Positions 1,602-22,250 of a stretch of 26,051 nucleotides of DNA are shown piece after piece (the stretch's first letter is position 1; each line of letters starts with the position of its first letter). The DNA is taken from positions 1 to 26,051 of the IMG/VR virus record IMGVR_UViG_3300015186_000011; one strand, 5' to 3'. The notes under the pieces were generated by a model that had not been told where the DNA came from, ran no database searches, and was given only the letters and a program-made list of their open reading frames with translations. Both the position numbers and the translations under genes were made by a program. This DNA comes from a virus (taxonomy: Duplodnaviria > Heunggongvirae > Uroviricota > Caudoviricetes).

Positions 1602-1741
1602 GGTTTGCAATTACCAAGCGGAGTGCTTATATTTACCTTTGCGGTAAATTTACATCGCACTCCTCTTGTGCCATAGTAATCGAGCACTGGCAAAATCCAG
1701 TGCCGGGATTGGTCTCCCGGATTACTACAGAGGCACATATG

Positions 1742-1760
1742 CCGCATAAGCGGTTTTTTT
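1742..1760 (+). terminator. Weak putative intrinsic terminator (short CCGC/GCGG stem followed by T7 run)
   Basis: ccgcataagcggttttttt. The stem is only 4 bp, so this is low confidence. Confidence 0.3.
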
Positions 1761-1914
1761 ATGTGTAAAGCGCACCTATTCTATGGTGGGCTGTGTGGGG
1801 GCACCGAAAGGTGCGCCGGGTTCCTTTGTAGCCGGTAAGACCAACTCTGCACAGTTCACCACCATCTGATTGGTCTCAGCGGTGGTGATTAACCTAACTA
1901 CAAAGGTGATCGCC

Positions 1915-2631: not shown

Positions 2632-2728
2632 TACAATTATCAATAATTGTTTACACTCGTTGCAGTTAAAAGCATTATACTCATGTTTAAAATTACCCGA
2701 TTGGTAAAGTCGATTGGTTGAGGTTCAT

Positions 2729-3055
2729 ATGAGCAGAAGATATGTCAAGGAGCTGGCTATAGAGTCTGGCACCCCTTTGGGTATCGTTCCTGGCTCCAAC
2801 TATGCCAAGGCTTTAAACCGAGACTCTGTCGTCAAAGTTATATCAAGAGACATGAATATGGTCGGAGACGATCTCAGACGGTCAGAAAATCGTGTTTATG
2901 CTGAATATATAGTAAAGAACGGAAAAAAAATTGCAGCGCCTGCTGGCGGAAAATGGGCAATAGTGACAGGGAAAAACTCAAATGCAAGAGGAAAACCAGA
3001 AGCTAAAGGAATGTCCTTCGACAAATATGCAAAAATCTATTGGGCAACCAAGTGA
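2729..3055 (+). CDS. Hypothetical protein (108 aa), first gene of a plus-strand cassette
   Basis: ATG at 2729 with GAGGT 5 nt upstream. Product MSRRYVKELAIESGTPLGIVPGSNYAKALNRD... has no family I can place. A CAATTATCAATAATTG inverted repeat lies upstream at 2634-2649. Confidence 0.45.
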   Translation: MSRRYVKELAIESGTPLGIVPGSNYAKALNRDSVVKVISRDMNMVGDDLRRSENRVYAEYIVKNGKKIAAPAGGKWAIVTGKNSNARGKPEAKGMSFDKYAKIYWATK

Positions 3056-3530
3056 TAACGAAGAAACTGAGTTCGAGGAAGTTGAGGAAGGGCTAAGTAA
3101 CGAGATCATTCAACACCCAGATGCCTTCACAAGAGTTCTTGATCGCCCTGAAATTCAGGAGATAGTTGTCGCTCACCATGCGTTTCAGGGTCCGCTTCCT
3201 CCCCCCTATCTGCTTCGCGGGTATCAGGATATTTTACCTGATGCCCCCGAACGCATCTTCCAGCTGACGGAGAAGGAGTTTGCTCACCGCCAGAAAATGG
3301 AGGAAAAGGCACTTGACGGGGCTATTAATAGAGATAAACGTGGGCAGTGGTTTGGCCTGAGTGCAACTATTTTTACAGTAGCTTGTGCAACATTATTAGG
3401 TTTAACAGGTCATGAAGTTCTAGCTGGCACAGTGATCGGTACAGTTGTTGCAGTGGCTGGTATTTTTGTTCTCAGACAAAAACCGAGCTTAAAGAAGAAC
3501 GCTGAAGATAAAACACCAGAAGAAGAGTAA
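2982..3530 (+). CDS. DUF2335-like predicted membrane protein (acidic N-terminal region, two C-terminal TM helices)
   Basis: Motif GPLPPPYLLRGYQDILPDAPERIFQLTEKEFAHRQKMEEKALDGAINRDKRGQWFG followed by hydrophobic segments matches my recollection of DUF2335. Start is ambiguous (ATG at 2982 or 3027); both overlap the upstream ORF in another frame. Confidence 0.55.
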   Translation: MQEENQKLKECPSTNMQKSIGQPSDNEETEFEEVEEGLSNEIIQHPDAFTRVLDRPEIQEIVVAHHAFQGPLPPPYLLRGYQDILPDAPERIFQLTEKEFAHRQKMEEKALDGAINRDKRGQWFGLSATIFTVACATLLGLTGHEVLAGTVIGTVVAVAGIFVLRQKPSLKKNAEDKTPEEE

Positions 3531-4802: not shown

Positions 4803-4877
4803 GTCGTTAATTCCTATACGTAGTTTTACGATACTGAAGCCCTGACGGTCTGGCCACCGTGGGGCTTCGCTGTTTTA
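4803..4877 (+). ncRNA. sar: Candidate sar-like antisense small RNA (~75 nt) complementary to the ant ribosome-binding region
   Basis: A promoter at 4768-4796 and an intrinsic terminator on the same strand (nested hairpin GAAGCCC..ACGGT-ctggcc-ACCGT..GGGCTTC at 4836-4868, then GCTGTTTTAT) bracket a ~75-nt transcript in the arc-ant intercistronic region. This mirrors the sar antisense RNA of P22 immI. Confidence 0.45.
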
Positions 4878-18981: not shown

Positions 18982-19274
18982 TCCTGTTCACTGGCCTCTT
19001 TGGCCATCTTCAAATACTGTTCAGGGCAATGCGCCATAACGCGCTGAAACAGTTCCAGCGCCAGATTGCGTTGCCCCTCATTAAATGCCATTGCCATAGC
19101 GTCCATCGGTGAGATAGCGGAAAACACACGGCCTTTCTCCAGCACCGACCAGACAACGCGACGCCCCTGTTCACTGCTCATGACAAAGCGAATGTCATCA
19201 ATTTCACGCTGTGCCATGTCACGTTGTTTACGGGCGTTTTCTTCTTTCAGTTGATCATCTTCGTAATCTGTCAT
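18978..19274 (-). CDS. Hypothetical small protein (98 aa) between portal and scaffold genes
   Basis: Start overlaps the portal stop and the stop overlaps the scaffold start; unknown function. Confidence 0.45.
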   Translation of the reverse strand: MTDYEDDQLKEENARKQRDMAQREIDDIRFVMSSEQGRRVVWSVLEKGRVFSAISPMDAMAMAFNEGQRNLALELFQRVMAHCPEQYLKMAKEASEQE

Positions 19275-20950
19275 TGTGATTGCCCACCCTGACCACTAAC
19301 TGCATTCGCCATAGCTGACAAAACACTCGGATCCGAAGTTTTAGCTTCGCTTAGCGTCTTGGCGCCCTGTGCCGCCGCCATTCCCATCGCCATCATTTGT
19401 TGCTGCTGTTGCTGCTGTGCCCGTTGCTGGCGAGCCTGCTCAACCTGTTCCTGCGGAACAATGACGGTTGGAGACACTCCGGACATATCAGCGAATGCAT
19501 CGATCGCCTGATCAACGTTGAGTTTGTCGAGAGCTTCTGGTTTCGCTTGCGCAAGTTGACCAATGAAGTTGACCGTAGACGCCAGACTGGACAGGCCGAT
19601 AGACTTCTGCGCCTGAGCCATGACGGAAATGTATTCGACCTTCAGGGGCATACCTTCCATCGCGTCAGGCGGTGGCGGCAGCATGTTTTTACGCACCATC
19701 ATCGAGAAAGCGCGGTCAATGAGAGGATTAAGACATTCGTCGTTCAGACGCTCCAGAACCGGCCCCAACATCAGAAGTTTTTCTTCTTTCATTTCGATCA
19801 CCGCTTCAACAGGCATCGAGCGGGTATTGATGTTCTGCAACATCATGAACAGATCGACAAAGTAGGCGCTGTTAATGATTTGACGAGTGTCCTGAATGTC
19901 TGCCACCAAATCTGCTGTACTGGGGTTAACCAGATAAGCAGGCCTGAAGCCATCCTGACCAGTAATCTGATCGATATACGTGATGTCGCCAGGAAGAAGG
20001 GAGGCGCGCTGATTCTTGAGGGAAGTCGGAGCAACCATCGGCGGATTGGTGGCTTTATCAATCAACTGCGACTTGCGCTTCTGGAGAAGCTGCAATGCCT
20101 TAACAGGTCCAAGCGCCAGCATACCCGGGCATGATGATCCATAAACATCTTCGCCATTAACTTCCCAGCGCGGAGCCATAATTGGAAACTCATCAAATCC
20201 GGACTCACGCAACAACTTGTCGTTATCGCCACCAACCTCGTAATAAACCGATTTGAATGGCTTGTTCTTGCTATCCAGCTTCGATGTATCGCGGTCAATG
20301 TTCGGGTAAACCGAATGCATCACGTCAATCCACTTCTCGTAGTTGCCGCTTTCCCACATGCTTTTTACGGATTCGCTGACGTTATTTAGCCCGAACTCCT
20401 GAACAAGCTGACGAACAGTCATAGAGAACTTGCGAAAACAGGTGTCAACACTGCCACGAGGTGAGTTAGCCAGGTAGTAACTGCCTATCGGGAATGGCAT
20501 TGTGCGAATGATGTCCTCGTCATCCTCCAGCACTGCCATTGCACCAGTGCTGTATGTGCCGAGGCTTCCGTATAACTGCGGAAGAGACTGGTAGAGATTC
20601 GACTTATTGAACATATCGTTCATGCGGTTCTGAACTGCCTCAAGCCACAACTTAACAGGGCCATAATCCATCATTTCAGGATCTGGCGTAGCCAGGCGAA
20701 ACCACGGACGCGCGGGGCTTGTGATGCCTGACATCATGCCGCTGGCGAGAGTGCGCGCCGCCATAGTCCCGGTCGAATCAATAATGCGTGTATTGCGCCG
20801 ATCGTTACGGTTGGCCTCAGAAGTCAGAAAGCGGGAACCACGCGGGTTGATGTAATCACTCAACTCGCGCCAGTGCGGCTCGAACGACTGACGCTCGCTT
20901 TCAAGTTGTGCGAACTGTTTGTTCAATCGCTCTTTAGTTGTTTCCGCCAT
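19271..20950 (-). CDS. Portal (head-to-tail connector) protein, podovirus type (559 aa)
   Basis: Size, position downstream of terminase, and Gln-rich C-terminal tail (QQRAQQQQQQQMMAMGMAAAQG). RBS GGAG 9 nt upstream of the ATG at 20950. Confidence 0.7.
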   Translation of the reverse strand: MAETTKERLNKQFAQLESERQSFEPHWRELSDYINPRGSRFLTSEANRNDRRNTRIIDSTGTMAARTLASGMMSGITSPARPWFRLATPDPEMMDYGPVKLWLEAVQNRMNDMFNKSNLYQSLPQLYGSLGTYSTGAMAVLEDDEDIIRTMPFPIGSYYLANSPRGSVDTCFRKFSMTVRQLVQEFGLNNVSESVKSMWESGNYEKWIDVMHSVYPNIDRDTSKLDSKNKPFKSVYYEVGGDNDKLLRESGFDEFPIMAPRWEVNGEDVYGSSCPGMLALGPVKALQLLQKRKSQLIDKATNPPMVAPTSLKNQRASLLPGDITYIDQITGQDGFRPAYLVNPSTADLVADIQDTRQIINSAYFVDLFMMLQNINTRSMPVEAVIEMKEEKLLMLGPVLERLNDECLNPLIDRAFSMMVRKNMLPPPPDAMEGMPLKVEYISVMAQAQKSIGLSSLASTVNFIGQLAQAKPEALDKLNVDQAIDAFADMSGVSPTVIVPQEQVEQARQQRAQQQQQQQMMAMGMAAAQGAKTLSEAKTSDPSVLSAMANAVSGQGGQSQ

Positions 20951-20964
20951 TTCAATGACTCCGG

Positions 20965-21171
20965 TTACTGACCAAGCAGCGTTTTACCGCTGGTATTAGC
21001 GGTTGATGTGTCGCCCTGAGAACCGGTAAGCAGCGTAGAACTACGACCAGCAGCAGCGCGACGGCGACGTGTTTCTTCGTCGCGGGCATCAACAACGGCG
21101 GCATCCTGCTCCTGTGGTGCTGCCTGAACTTCTGGTGTTGCAGGCACTGATGGTGAGCTACCCATGCACAT
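20965..21171 (-). CDS. Hypothetical small protein (68 aa) directly upstream of the portal gene
   Basis: ATG at 21171 within CGGAGTCATTGAT-ATG; the portal gene has a near-identical initiation region CGGAGTCATTGAA-ATG. Low-complexity acidic/Arg-rich product, so coding status is uncertain. Confidence 0.35.
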   Translation of the reverse strand: MCMGSSPSVPATPEVQAAPQEQDAAVVDARDEETRRRRAAAGRSSTLLTGSQGDTSTANTSGKTLLGQ

Positions 21172-21197
21172 ATCAATGACTCCGTACGCAATTAAAT

Positions 21198-21277
21198 TAT
21201 TACCAATTTAACCACATATGATTTATTTATCGTAGAAGGTTGACATTTGACGCGTGAATTATTACCTTTCAGGTAAC
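21198..21277 (-). promoter_or_regulatory. Conserved bipartite upstream element (copy B) ahead of the portal operon
   Basis: Plus-strand tattacc 21198-21204, aaccacatatg 21210-21220, tattacctttcaggtaa 21260-21276. Same elements and order as 1201-1268 upstream of the tailspike gene. Confidence 0.5.
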
Positions 21278-21598
21278 TAAAGAGCTCATTCCGGCTACTA
21301 ACCTGACTGGCTTGTCGTTAAATTGAACAGGTGGAGTGAGATTTTATTTTGAGCAGTACGGCGTATGGCACATGCGCCGATAGCGGTCTGGATACGTTTA
21401 AGGGGCACCCTCCCTTGCTCGGGCAAACGAACCAGGTAGCCGGAATGTGCAAGTCGAGCGGTTTTATTCCGCGCACGGGGATTCACCATCCCGGCGATTC
21501 GGTGTGACGCCTCGGAAGAGACGAGGGTACAACGATGAGAGCATTTATGGAGCCGCGACAAAGTGTGGCGCCTTAACAGGCTAAGTGCTCTCAGCGTT

Positions 21599-21675
21599 GT
21601 GGCATTAGCTCAGTTGGACAGAGCAACCGCCTTCTAAGCGGTTGGTCGCAGGTTCGAATCCTGCATGCCACGCCA
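21599..21675 (+). tRNA. tRNA-Arg, anticodon UCU (reads AGA), with encoded CCA
   Basis: Cloverleaf read by hand: acceptor GTGGCAT/ATGCCAC, D-arm GCTC..GAGC, anticodon stem ACCGC/GCGGT with loop CTTCTAA (anticodon TCT), T-arm GCAGG-TTCGAAT-CCTGC, discriminator G and CCA. Acceptor stem differs from host argU as I recall it, consistent with a phage-borne copy. Confidence 0.8.
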
Positions 21676-21718
21676 GAATCACGCCTAAGGACCGTGATAC
21701 CAGAAGTTCCAGGTGCTT

Positions 21719-21761
21719 GGCGGTGATGGTTTCCCTTGAAGGACTATCACCGCCCTTTTTA
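21719..21761 (+). terminator. Rho-independent terminator downstream of the tRNA
   Basis: GGCGGTGAT...ATCACCGCC stem (9 bp) followed by CTTTTT. Confidence 0.6.
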
Positions 21762-21838
21762 CAGCAGGACGCCATTGCGATGACTTCATGCTGTAAACCC
21801 GTACAGCCACGGAAGGCAGAACTCATTGCTTCCAGTTC

Positions 21839-21862
21839 GCCCGGTTCGCCGGGCATTTTTTT
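21839..21862 (+). terminator. Rho-independent terminator-like hairpin immediately upstream of the Gp49-like gene RBS
   Basis: GCCCGG-ttcg-CCGGGC followed by ATTTTTTT; the AAGGTGAG RBS of the next gene starts right after the U-tract. Confidence 0.6.
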
Positions 21863-21878
21863 AAGGTGAGATTAGACT

Positions 21879-22250
21879 ATGAGTGACAAAGACATTGAAT
21901 CTGAAATTCAGGCTAAAGGTTTAGCCGCGCCGCGCGTTACGCCAGACCATATCGAGAGCATTATTGCTCAGGAGGCATATTTCACAGCAGAAGATGGTGT
22001 CTTTGGCGTAGCCATAAAAGCGAAACATACTGGCGGAGAGGTAAACTACCAGCCGCACGAATCACTTTCTCTGCTGACTTTCTGCGTTCTGGTGCTGCGC
22101 AACGGCTTCACCGTCACCGGAGAGAGCGCCTGTGCAAGCCCGGAAAACTTTGATGCGGAAATTGGTCGGAAGATTGCCCGGCAGAATGCTGTAAACAAAA
22201 TCTGGATGCTTGAAGGTTACTTGCTGAAGCAGAAGTTAAGCGAGCAATAA
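21879..22250 (+). CDS. Phage Gp49 / Sf6 gene-66 family protein (123 aa)
   Basis: MSDKDIESEIQAKGL...LSLLTFCVLVLRNGFTVTGESACASPENFDAEIGRKIARQNAVNKIW matches my recollection of this conserved small phage protein family. Confidence 0.6.
   Translation: MSDKDIESEIQAKGLAAPRVTPDHIESIIAQEAYFTAEDGVFGVAIKAKHTGGEVNYQPHESLSLLTFCVLVLRNGFTVTGESACASPENFDAEIGRKIARQNAVNKIWMLEGYLLKQKLSEQ

What the first reader, a model, noticed from the sequence alone, without database searches (positions are those of the whole stretch)
21290..21598. GC-rich, hairpin-dense 300-bp non-coding region upstream of the tRNA
There is no plus-strand ORF here, and the only minus-strand ORF is Arg-rich and implausible as a protein. The sequence contains a long-range complementary pair CCGGCTAC (21291-21298) / GTAGCCGG (21437-21444) and several local hairpins (GGGAT-tcacc-ATCCC, CCTCG-gaagaga-CGAGG). 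This could be a tRNA precursor leader, a small RNA, or remnant host DNA from a tRNA-associated recombination event.
Basis: seen in the sequence. Interest (0 to 1): 0.4.

Follow-up and report, generated by a model that had tools for sequence, protein, structure and literature searches.

The report
Unannotated structured RNA in phage early leaders
The region holds a real, strongly conserved, about 170-base folded RNA that no database names, carried at the start of early transcripts by several unrelated enterobacterial phages and present in a third of complete E. coli genomes; what it does is not known.

Summary
The window is a phiV10/epsilon15-like phage. Positions 21357-21528 encode a pseudoknotted RNA core (H1, P2, P3, P4 plus pseudoknot, P5). 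Twelve base pairs show compensatory changes, and 96% of pair cells are standard pairs against 30-45% in slid controls. No reading frame is conserved.

A long hairpin, P6 (21530-21599), follows the core. It encloses a hypervariable insert and ends at the first base of tRNA-Arg.

The same core sits in cI-proximal PL leaders of lambdoid phages (cdtI, mEp460, Stx2a/Stx2c phages), in the P1/P7 ban operon next to trnI, and in Klebsiella, Enterobacter and Salmonella phages. It occurs in 1840 of 5426 complete E. coli genomes and is never annotated. Rfam 15 has no match.

It always lies in an early transcript that is under, or inferred to be under, repressor control. Its neighbours are other RNA modules: hairpins like the one upstream of dicF in the Qin prophage, rare-codon tRNAs, and a DicF-like terminator.

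Best reading (about 0.4): an autonomous, mobile ncRNA cut from the early leader that acts by binding a conserved host component. Main rival (about 0.25): a cis-acting antiterminator that works like HK022 put. It is not a put family member.

The parts
21240..21276 (+). Candidate early promoter (TTGACA at 21240-21245) overlapping a palindromic operator, TTACC-N5-GGTAA, at 21262-21276
   Evidence: The block is conserved in five Uetakevirus-type loci (alignment A3). The equivalent palindrome in epsilon15 is annotated 'repressor, lysogeny'. The consensus scan found no promoter by its own criteria, so the promoter is inferred.
21281..21350 (+). Degenerate upstream hairpin module. It contains GUCGUUAAAU and is the same kind of hairpin as P6 and as the hairpin upstream of dicF in Qin.
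   Evidence: Alignment A3 shows better-preserved copies in epsilon15, Tyrion and PAT1 (AAAGCGCGC...GUGCGCUUUCAGGUGUG). The homologous module in the Qin dicB operon is seen.
21357..21528 (+). Conserved RNA core. H1 is 21359-21367 paired with 21371-21379. P2 is 21384-21391 paired with 21432-21435 and 21439-21442, with a GUA bulge. The invariant 19-mer GGUAGCCGGAAUGUGCAAG is at 21435-21453. P3 is 21458-21461 paired with 21469-21472. P4 is 21478-21481 paired with 21489-21492. The pseudoknot joins 21484-21487 to 21501-21504. P5 is 21510-21514 paired with 21522-21526.
   Evidence: Model R1 scores 145.7 bits, E = 2e-41. Pair counts on A2: 96% of cells paired, 12 pairs with changes on both sides, 0 of 500 shuffles as good. 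P3 rests on reading the alignments and was not in that pair count. Rfam gives no match at E <= 10.
21530..21599 (+). P6, a long closing helix (CAACGAUGAGAGCAUU at 21530-21545 paired with AGUGCUCUCAGCGUUG at 21584-21599) around a hypervariable insert (21546-21583). Probably an RNase III-type processing hairpin. Its last pair uses base 1 of the tRNA.
   Evidence: P6 folds in all 34 distinct variants, with compensating stem sequences and insert regions from under 20 to more than 130 nt. Inserts differ between otherwise near-identical phiV10-like copies.
21599..21675 (+). tRNA-Arg (anticodon TCT). RNase P cleavage at its 5' end would define the 3' end of the P6 RNA.
   Evidence: ARAGORN and Rfam tRNA at 73.3 bits. 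The cleavage is inferred from general knowledge of RNase P.
21707..21760 (+). DicF-like segment ending in strong terminator T1 (stem 21719-21754, then a U tract)
   Evidence: Terminator scan. The same terminator family, GGCGGU...ACCGCC-U5-ACA, follows the core in lambdoid and Uetakevirus loci. It aligns with E. coli dicF, which lies between ydfC and dicB. The Rfam DicF model does not reach E <= 10 here, so the label is tentative.
21839..21862 (+). Second terminator T2, whose U tract runs into the ribosome-binding site of the next ORF
   Evidence: In related loci T2 is followed within about 20 nt by different cargo ORFs.
21879..22250 (+). Cargo ORF of the same transcription unit (Phage_gp49_66 family). 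The equivalent slot in phage D6 holds a Tad2-like anti-Thoeris domain protein, and a Klebsiella phage has a DUF2829 protein there.
   Evidence: Pfam PF13876, E = 2.4e-35; D6 ORF PF11195, E = 1.1e-9. Klebsiella annotation.

Best explanation
The region encodes an autonomous, horizontally mobile non-coding RNA module.

It is transcribed as part of the long untranslated leader of an early operon that is under repressor control. That leader is an array of RNA modules: long hairpins, this core, a rare-codon tRNA and a DicF-like sRNA/terminator.

The core folds into a compact pseudoknotted structure. About 60 positions are invariant, many of them in junctions and loops.

I infer that host RNases free it from the primary transcript. 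RNase III would cut in the flanking long hairpins, and RNase P or tRNA 3' processing would cut where a tRNA abuts it. I also infer that the released stable RNA works by binding one conserved component of enterobacterial cells early in infection or induction, that is, as a host-takeover or counter-defence RNA like its neighbours.

Shown: the structure, its conservation, its mobility, its early-leader position and its RNA neighbours. Inferred: the processing, the stability, action in trans and the target.
For: 1. It is a real structured RNA read from the + strand. On alignment A2, 96% of pair cells are standard pairs against 30-45% when the partners are slid; 12 pairs change on both sides; G-U pairs occur only in the + orientation.

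2. The same core occurs in unrelated phage types and places. These are Uetakevirus phages (between portal and terminase), lambdoid PL leaders, the P1/P7/D6 ban operon, and Klebsiella, Enterobacter and Salmonella phages. Its flanks differ between them.

3. It is accessory.
- SfV has the same PL, the same terminator and the same downstream genes as cdtI, but a different segment in place of the core.
- The Qin dicB operon has the hairpin, DicF and terminator modules without the core.
- epsilon15 has lost most of it.

4. P1-like phages keep the core alone, without P6 and without a downstream terminator, 15 nt after the CCA end of trnI.

5. Of 116 distinct copies, 36 abut a tRNA. P6 ends at tRNA base 1 in this window.

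6. The flanking hairpins are homologous to the one upstream of dicF. The downstream terminator resembles DicF itself.

7. The neighbouring cargo genes include Tad2-like proteins.
Against: - No expression, processing or stability data were available.
- No target can be named.
- In lambdoid copies no terminator or known processing site lies at the exact 3' end of the core.
- The position just after an early promoter, upstream of strong terminators that precede promoter-less ORFs, fits a cis-acting element equally well.
- The RNA is much larger and more intricate than known trans-acting phage sRNAs.
Confidence: 0.4

Rival explanations
1. Cis-acting processive antiterminator that works like HK022 put. 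The nascent core binds the RNA polymerase that made it, alone or with Nus factors recruited by the boxA/boxC-like flanking hairpins. That polymerase then reads through T1 and T2 and reaches the promoter-less downstream genes.
For: - In the lambdoid and P1 copies the core lies just downstream of a repressor-controlled early promoter. In cdtI the order is cI stop, terminator, TTGACA-16-CATAAT overlapping an operator also found at OR, then the core. mEp390 is the same. In P1 it is in the C1-controlled ban operon. The Uetakevirus promoter and operator are inferred.
- That is the place putL occupies in HK022 and HK639.
- A strong terminator lies downstream on the same strand in 90 of 116 copies, against 9 of 116 on the opposite strand and 30 of 206 in random segments.
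- T2 abuts the ribosome-binding site of varied cargo ORFs. No promoter was found between the terminator and the first ORF in cdtI.
- No N-like gene is annotated or detected in the mEp460 or cdtI early regions.
- H1 shares ACGGCG...CAUGCGUCG with put stem I.
Against: - A put covariance model finds putL (99.5 bits) and putR (44.4 bits) but nothing in this element.
- The element's own model and nhmmer find nothing in HK022 or HK639.
- SfV and Qin carry the same terminator family ahead of downstream genes without the core.
- P1-like copies have no downstream terminator.
- There is no second copy on the PR side.
- The terminator looks like a separate DicF-like module.
Confidence: 0.25
2. Ligand-sensing leader (riboswitch-like aptamer) that tunes early transcription or the fate of the leader in response to a host metabolite or signalling nucleotide.
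For: - The fold is compact and pseudoknotted, with invariant junctions, as in aptamers.
- It lies in a 5' leader.
- An alternative pairing, GCACAU (H1 loop) with AUGUGC (junction J2/3), was predicted on the first alignment.
Against: - No expression platform overlaps the core.
- A tRNA or 100-500 nt separates it from the terminator.
- P1 copies have no terminator.
- No Rfam riboswitch family matches.
- The alternative pairing cannot be tested, because both strands are invariant.
Confidence: 0.1
3. Binding site (an extended nut-like site) for an as yet unrecognised phage antiterminator or other RNA-binding protein.
For: - boxA-like (UGCUCUUUCC) and boxC-like (GUUGUGG, GGUGUG) strings lie in the flanking hairpins.
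- A perfect rrn boxA, UGCUCUUUAACAA, lies right after the core in L094 and L038.
- The mEp phage collection is described as Nus-dependent (PMC11893012).
Against: - No protein gene co-occurs with the core across the phage types.
- The boxA/boxC-like strings belong to hairpin modules that also occur without the core.
Confidence: 0.08
4. One reading: a mere tRNA precursor leader, a remnant of host DNA, or a small protein-coding gene (GenBank records for mEp460 and mEp390 annotate ORFs here).
For: It is adjacent to tRNA-Arg. Hypothetical CDSs are annotated over it in mEp390 and mEp460.
Against: - 80 of 116 copies have no tRNA.
- Matches occur only in phage, prophage or P1-plasmid DNA.
- No frame is conserved and the indels are not multiples of three.
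Confidence: 0.03

Closest known systems
HK022 putL/putR and the HK639 'putL-like antiterminator RNA' (RNA-only processive antitermination)
   Same: Both are structured RNAs made from the first bases of the PL transcript of N-less lambdoid phages, upstream of terminators. They share a short motif in the first hairpin, ACGGCG...CAUGCGUCG.
   Different: put is about 74 nt with two stems. This core is about 170 nt with five helices and a pseudoknot. Neither covariance model detects the other family. This element is dispensable in close relatives (SfV). It also occurs mid-operon in P1 and next to tRNAs.
dicB-operon leader of the Qin prophage (long hairpin, DicF sRNA and its terminator)
   Same: The hairpin modules flanking the core, the segment after P6 in cdtI, and the downstream terminator family are homologous or closely similar to the ydfC-dicF-dicB intergenic region. 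P1 carries a 'dicF-like region' in the same ban leader.
   Different: Qin has no core. The Rfam DicF model does not reach E <= 10 on the window or on the stretch after P6 in cdtI, L002 2700-3060. DicF processing by RNase III and RNase E is recalled from the literature (Faubladier et al. 1990) and was not checked here.
Stable RNAs co-encoded and co-processed with phage tRNAs or by RNase P (T4 species 1/2 RNAs; P1/P7 C4 and P4 CI RNAs)
   Same: A non-tRNA structured RNA lies in one transcript with tRNAs, and its ends coincide with tRNA ends.
   Different: There is no sequence or structure similarity. The C4 RNA of this same phage is elsewhere, at 1779-1866. The comparison rests on my own knowledge.
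Phage-associated ornate RNAs of unknown function found near tRNAs (GOLLD, ROOL)
   Same: They are phage or prophage borne, often beside tRNA genes, intricately structured, and of unknown function.
   Different: Those are 500-800 nt, come from other bacterial phyla and are in Rfam. This element matches neither.

Membership tests
put antiterminator RNA (HK022/HK639 type) | Sequence and structure match to the two-stem put consensus of about 74 nt | tested here: not met
   Model R2, built from six put sequences, scores putL 99.5 bits and putR 44.4 bits. It gives no match to the element at E <= 10 in 13 sources that hold it.
put antiterminator RNA (HK022/HK639 type) | Located in the early transcript just downstream of PL or PR, upstream of terminators | tested here: met
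   Met in cdtI and mEp390. P1 copies lie mid-operon with no terminator.
put antiterminator RNA (HK022/HK639 type) | Suppresses termination in cis by binding the RNA polymerase beta' zinc-binding domain | not testable with these tools
   Needs transcription assays or genetics with rpoC mutants.
Any Rfam 15 family (riboswitches, ribozymes, T-box, sRNAs, tmRNA, RNase P, 6S) | Covariance-model score at the gathering threshold, or E <= 10 | tested here: not met
   Only the tRNA matches in 21150-21900 at E <= 10. The whole-window gathering scan gives C4, isrK, sar and tRNA only.
tRNA or tRNA-like gene or pseudogene | Cloverleaf detectable by ARAGORN or the tRNA covariance model | tested here: not met
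   No tRNA was called inside the core in 116 copies. Some P6 inserts do look tRNA-like (L109) or carry T-arm-like hairpins (L018, L007).
DicF sRNA (for the downstream T1 segment, not the core) | Match to the DicF model; position downstream of a long hairpin in a lambdoid early-left operon; terminator hairpin GGCGGU...GCCGCC-U5 | tested here: inconclusive
   Position and terminator sequence are similar. The Rfam DicF model does not reach E <= 10 on the window or on cdtI 2700-3060.
Protein-coding gene | A reading frame conserved among homologues | tested here: not met
   The best frame is open in 11 of 26 homologues, and indel lengths fall in all classes mod 3.

The most novel reading that the evidence does not exclude
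The core is a new functional RNA class that temperate enterobacterial phages deploy in the first minutes of the lytic programme.

It could be a second, structurally unrelated family of RNA-only processive antiterminators. Or it could be a trans-acting aptamer or ribozyme-like RNA that neutralises a host defence or takes over a host machine. In either case it travels as a non-coding 'moron' between phage lineages, including P1 and Shiga-toxin phages.
Probability: 0.55. Interest if true: 0.8.

Novelty: new variant of a known kind. Interest (0 to 1): 0.62.

Why it matters
A 170-nt RNA with riboswitch-grade conservation sits unannotated in textbook phage P1, in Stx2a/Stx2c-converting phages, in O157 typing phages, and in about a third of complete E. 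coli genomes.

If it modifies RNA polymerase, it would be only the second kind of RNA-only antiterminator known in phages.

If it acts in trans, it would be a new kind of phage host-takeover or counter-defence RNA. It would also be a portable module for engineering.

Either way, these early leaders turn out to be arrays of exchangeable RNA modules (hairpins, tRNAs, DicF-like RNAs, this core). Current annotation misses this and sometimes mislabels it as hypothetical proteins.

Tried and rejected
- **Rfam.** Gathering and E <= 10 scans found no family for the core.
- **Homology to put.** Cross-searches with both covariance models and with nhmmer were negative. Only a short shared motif was seen by eye.
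- **Literature.** String searches for the invariant 16- to 18-mers found no paper. Searches on P1 transcriptomes, phiV10 and structured phage RNAs found nothing relevant. King 2011 (PMC3187212) and a 2026 preprint could not be opened.
- **Coding hypothesis.** Rejected.
Not conserved.
- **Distribution outside Enterobacterales.** Pattern hits in Maricaulis, Methylobacterium, Actinomycetota and others were chance matches by model R1.
- **Second copy on the PR side.** None found.
- **H1-loop/J2-3 pseudoknot (GCACAU/AUGUGC).** Untestable, because both strands are invariant in all copies.
- **N-like proteins.** Pfam and PHROGs gave no N-like antiterminator among the proteins scanned from element-bearing loci and from SfV (orf33).
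- **Ideas considered and dropped.** T-box, anticodon-loop mimic, anti-Shine-Dalgarno mimic and T-loop complement. The relevant positions vary among homologues or do not fit the consensus.

Full report
**What the window is.** The window is 97-99% identical, across the stretch searched (21150-21720), to phiV10, PAS61, TL-2011b and the O157 typing phages 9 and 10 (Uetakevirus). The finding lies between a small ORF and the portal gene on the minus strand (20965-21171 and 19271-20950) and a plus-strand unit. That unit consists of tRNA-Arg(TCT) at 21599-21675, two terminators, and ORF 21879-22250. It converges on the large terminase gene.

**Checking the observation.**
- The plus strand folds to -117.3 kcal/mol, z = -2.77 against dinucleotide shuffles. 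The minus strand gives z = -2.51.
- Rfam 15 has no family here even at E <= 10.
- The long-range pair CCGGCTAC/GTAGCCGG is present (the second arm is at 21436-21443). It is not conserved, because GTAGCCGG is part of an invariant 19-mer with another partner in every homologue.

**Conservation.** BLAST shows that positions about 21358-21545 recur at 70-83% identity in phages that share nothing else with this one.
- Lambdoid phages: cdtI, mEp460, mEp390, 2H10, Ayreon, Stx2c and Stx2a converting phages.
- P1, P7, D6, SJ46 and RCS47.
- Klebsiella, Enterobacter and Salmonella Uetakevirus-like phages, Klebsiella phage SopranoGao, and a phage deposited as infecting Stenotrophomonas.

The stretch is unannotated or covered by a 'hypothetical protein'. 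In complete E. coli genomes it occurs in 1840 of 5426, at 1920 chromosomal and 554 plasmid places, with no annotated feature in any record listed. The exact 19-mer GGTAGCCGGAATGTGCAAG occurs in at least 120 IMG/VR contigs. A pattern scan of one genome per species, checked with a covariance model, gave real copies only in Enterobacterales plus one short contig binned as Bacillota: Escherichia, Citrobacter, Klebsiella, Kosakonia, Phytobacter, Kluyvera, Enterobacter, Buttiauxella, Pseudescherichia, Pseudocitrobacter, Superficieibacter and Ca. Erwinia dacicola.

**Structure.** I tested this structure on 26 representatives less than 93% identical to one another (alignment A2):
- H1, a 9-bp hairpin;
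- P2, 8 bp with a GUA bulge and a variable distal part;
- P4, 4 bp with a 7-nt loop YUCACCA;
- a pseudoknot between CACC in that loop and GGUG downstream;
- P5, 5 bp with loop GAAGAGA.

A variable hairpin, P3, lies between P2 and P4; it rests on reading the alignments and was not part of the test. In the tested structure, 96.0% of pair cells are standard pairs, against 29-45% when partners are slid by 1-3 columns. Twelve pairs carry changes on both sides. No shuffle out of 500 reaches the observed values. G-U pairs occur in the plus orientation. The model built from this alignment (R1) scores the window copy at 145.7 bits over 21357-21528. No reading frame is conserved. About 60 positions are invariant, many in junctions. 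Part of this invariance comes from how the sequences were collected, since the 19-mer was the search pattern.

**The hairpin after the core.** P5 is followed by a long helix, P6 (CAACGAUGAGAGCAUU...AGUGCUCUCAGCGUUG). It closes an insert region that ranges from under 20 to more than 130 nt and differs even between otherwise near-identical phiV10-like copies. One insert is tRNA-like and others carry T-arm-like hairpins. Stem sequences co-vary between variants. In the window P6 ends at the first base of the tRNA.

The same kind of hairpin recurs in several places:
- upstream of the core in Uetakevirus loci, degenerate in this window at 21281-21350;
- downstream in cdtI and mEp390;
- in the E. coli Qin prophage just upstream of dicF.

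**Context.**
- In cdtI the order is: cI stop, terminator, a TTGACA-16-CATAAT promoter overlapping an operator that also occurs at OR, then the core about 45 nt later. mEp390 is the same.
- In P1 and P7 the core starts 15 nt after the CCA end of trnI inside the C1-controlled ban operon.
- In Uetakevirus loci a conserved TTGACA and a palindrome precede it. The palindrome is annotated in epsilon15 as a repressor site. The consensus scan did not call a promoter in the window, so there the promoter is inferred.

So in the lambdoid and P1 copies the RNA is made from a repressor-controlled early transcript; in the Uetakevirus copies that is inferred.

**Terminators.** A strong intrinsic terminator (-15 kcal/mol or lower) follows on the same strand within 855 nt in 90 of 116 distinct copies. 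The controls are 9 of 116 on the opposite strand and 30 of 206 in random segments. The copies are not phylogenetically independent.

That terminator is itself a conserved family, GGCGGU-(co-varying stem)-loop-ACCGCC-U5-ACA. It is shared by lambdoid and Uetakevirus loci and absent from HK022, HK639 and the P1 loci. It aligns with E. coli dicF, whose identity I confirmed from its position between ydfC and dicB. The stretch between P6 and the terminator in cdtI is homologous to the Qin sequence between the hairpin and dicF, and to P1's annotated 'dicF-like region'.

The terminator is therefore best read as a separate DicF-like module. That label is tentative, because the Rfam DicF model does not reach E <= 10.

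In Uetakevirus-type loci a second terminator abuts the ribosome-binding site of varied cargo ORFs. In the window the cargo is a Phage_gp49_66 protein. In D6 it carries a Tad2-like domain.

**Is it a put RNA?** HK022 putL and the annotated HK639 putL-like RNA occupy the same place after PL. Their first hairpin shares ACGGCG...CAUGCGUCG with H1. But a put model finds putL and putR and nothing in this element. R1 and nhmmer find nothing in HK022 or HK639. It is not a member of the put family.

**Is it needed for read-through?** Three natural variants argue that it is accessory.
- SfV has the same PL, terminator and downstream genes as cdtI, but another segment (including orf33) replaces the core. 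It keeps only the 3' end of P6.
- Qin has the hairpin, DicF and terminator, then dicB, without the core.
- P1-like copies have the core but no P6 and no terminator.

In epsilon15 a deletion between the repeated UUCCCUUGAUGCU in the P2 loop and in the T1 loop removed the rest of the core, P6, the tRNA and half of T1. One locus, L073, has lost the cargo ORF but keeps the promoter, core, P6 and both terminators.

**Verdict.** It is a new, widespread, structured RNA family.

I favour an autonomous ncRNA module that is processed out of a multi-RNA early leader and acts by binding a conserved host component (0.4). The grounds are its modular mobility, its dispensability in close relatives, its company (tRNAs, a DicF-like RNA, processing hairpins, anti-defence cargo), and the fact that P1 retains the bare core.

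A cis-acting antiterminator with a put-like mechanism remains a serious rival (0.25), because of the position after early promoters and the promoter-less genes behind strong terminators. A ligand sensor (0.1) and a protein-binding nut-like site (0.08) are less likely. The tRNA-leader, host-remnant and coding readings are essentially excluded.

No expression data were available, so processing, stability and target are inferences.

Noticed in passing
window 1684-1866 and 4804-4871: Rfam finds an isrK-like RNA (1684-1760), a C4 antisense RNA (1779-1866) and a sar RNA (4804-4871). This looks like an immI-type RNA-controlled antirepressor region in this Uetakevirus. cdtI and SfV carry the same isrK + C4 pair.
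   Followed up: no
window 21700-21760: Terminator T1 and the about 15 nt before it resemble the E. coli DicF sRNA (UUGGCGGU...ACCGCCCUUUUU), with a different loop. The same family follows the core in lambdoid phages. This is possibly a family of DicF-like sRNAs with divergent targeting loops. The Rfam DicF model does not detect it.
   Followed up: partly
window 21761-21862: The stretch between T1 and T2 is conserved among Uetakevirus loci. It ends in a hairpin plus U7 and gives weak sub-threshold matches to RyhB and anti-hemB 3' ends. It could be a further small RNA.
   Followed up: no
L004 (epsilon15) 1549-1612; window P2 loop 21392-21431 and T1 loop: The P2 distal loop and the T1 loop share a motif, CCUUG here and UUCCCUUGAUGCU in other copies. 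CUUG is complementary to the invariant CAAG of junction J2/3. Recombination between the two copies explains the epsilon15 deletion. Whether the shared loop has a function is unexplained.
   Followed up: partly
L109 3580 onward; L018, L007: Some P6 inserts contain a cloverleaf-like sequence with a perfect T arm (GGUUCGAUUCC), or two T-arm-like hairpins, that ARAGORN does not call. The P6 loop seems to be a landing site for tRNA-like sequences.
   Followed up: partly
L094 3330-3380 and L038: In these lambdoid copies the core is followed directly by a hairpin and a perfect rrn-type boxA (UGCUCUUUAACAA). A convergent membrane-protein moron comes next, then the early-left genes.
   Followed up: partly
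L193 (HK639) 37910-37969: The GenBank record annotates an 'M3-like RNA' after the cII-like gene. I could not find out what this is.
   Followed up: no
L005 (Enterobacter phage Tyrion) 2708-2772: An Rfam int-alpA RNA match (44 bits) lies in the same intergenic unit downstream of the element.
   Followed up: no
L192 6943-7311(-), L013 1511-1753(+), L198 5218-5514(-): The mEp460 and mEp390 records place 'hypothetical protein' CDSs over the RNA element; these are probably mis-annotations. SfV orf33 occupies the slot where the core sits in cdtI.
   Followed up: partly
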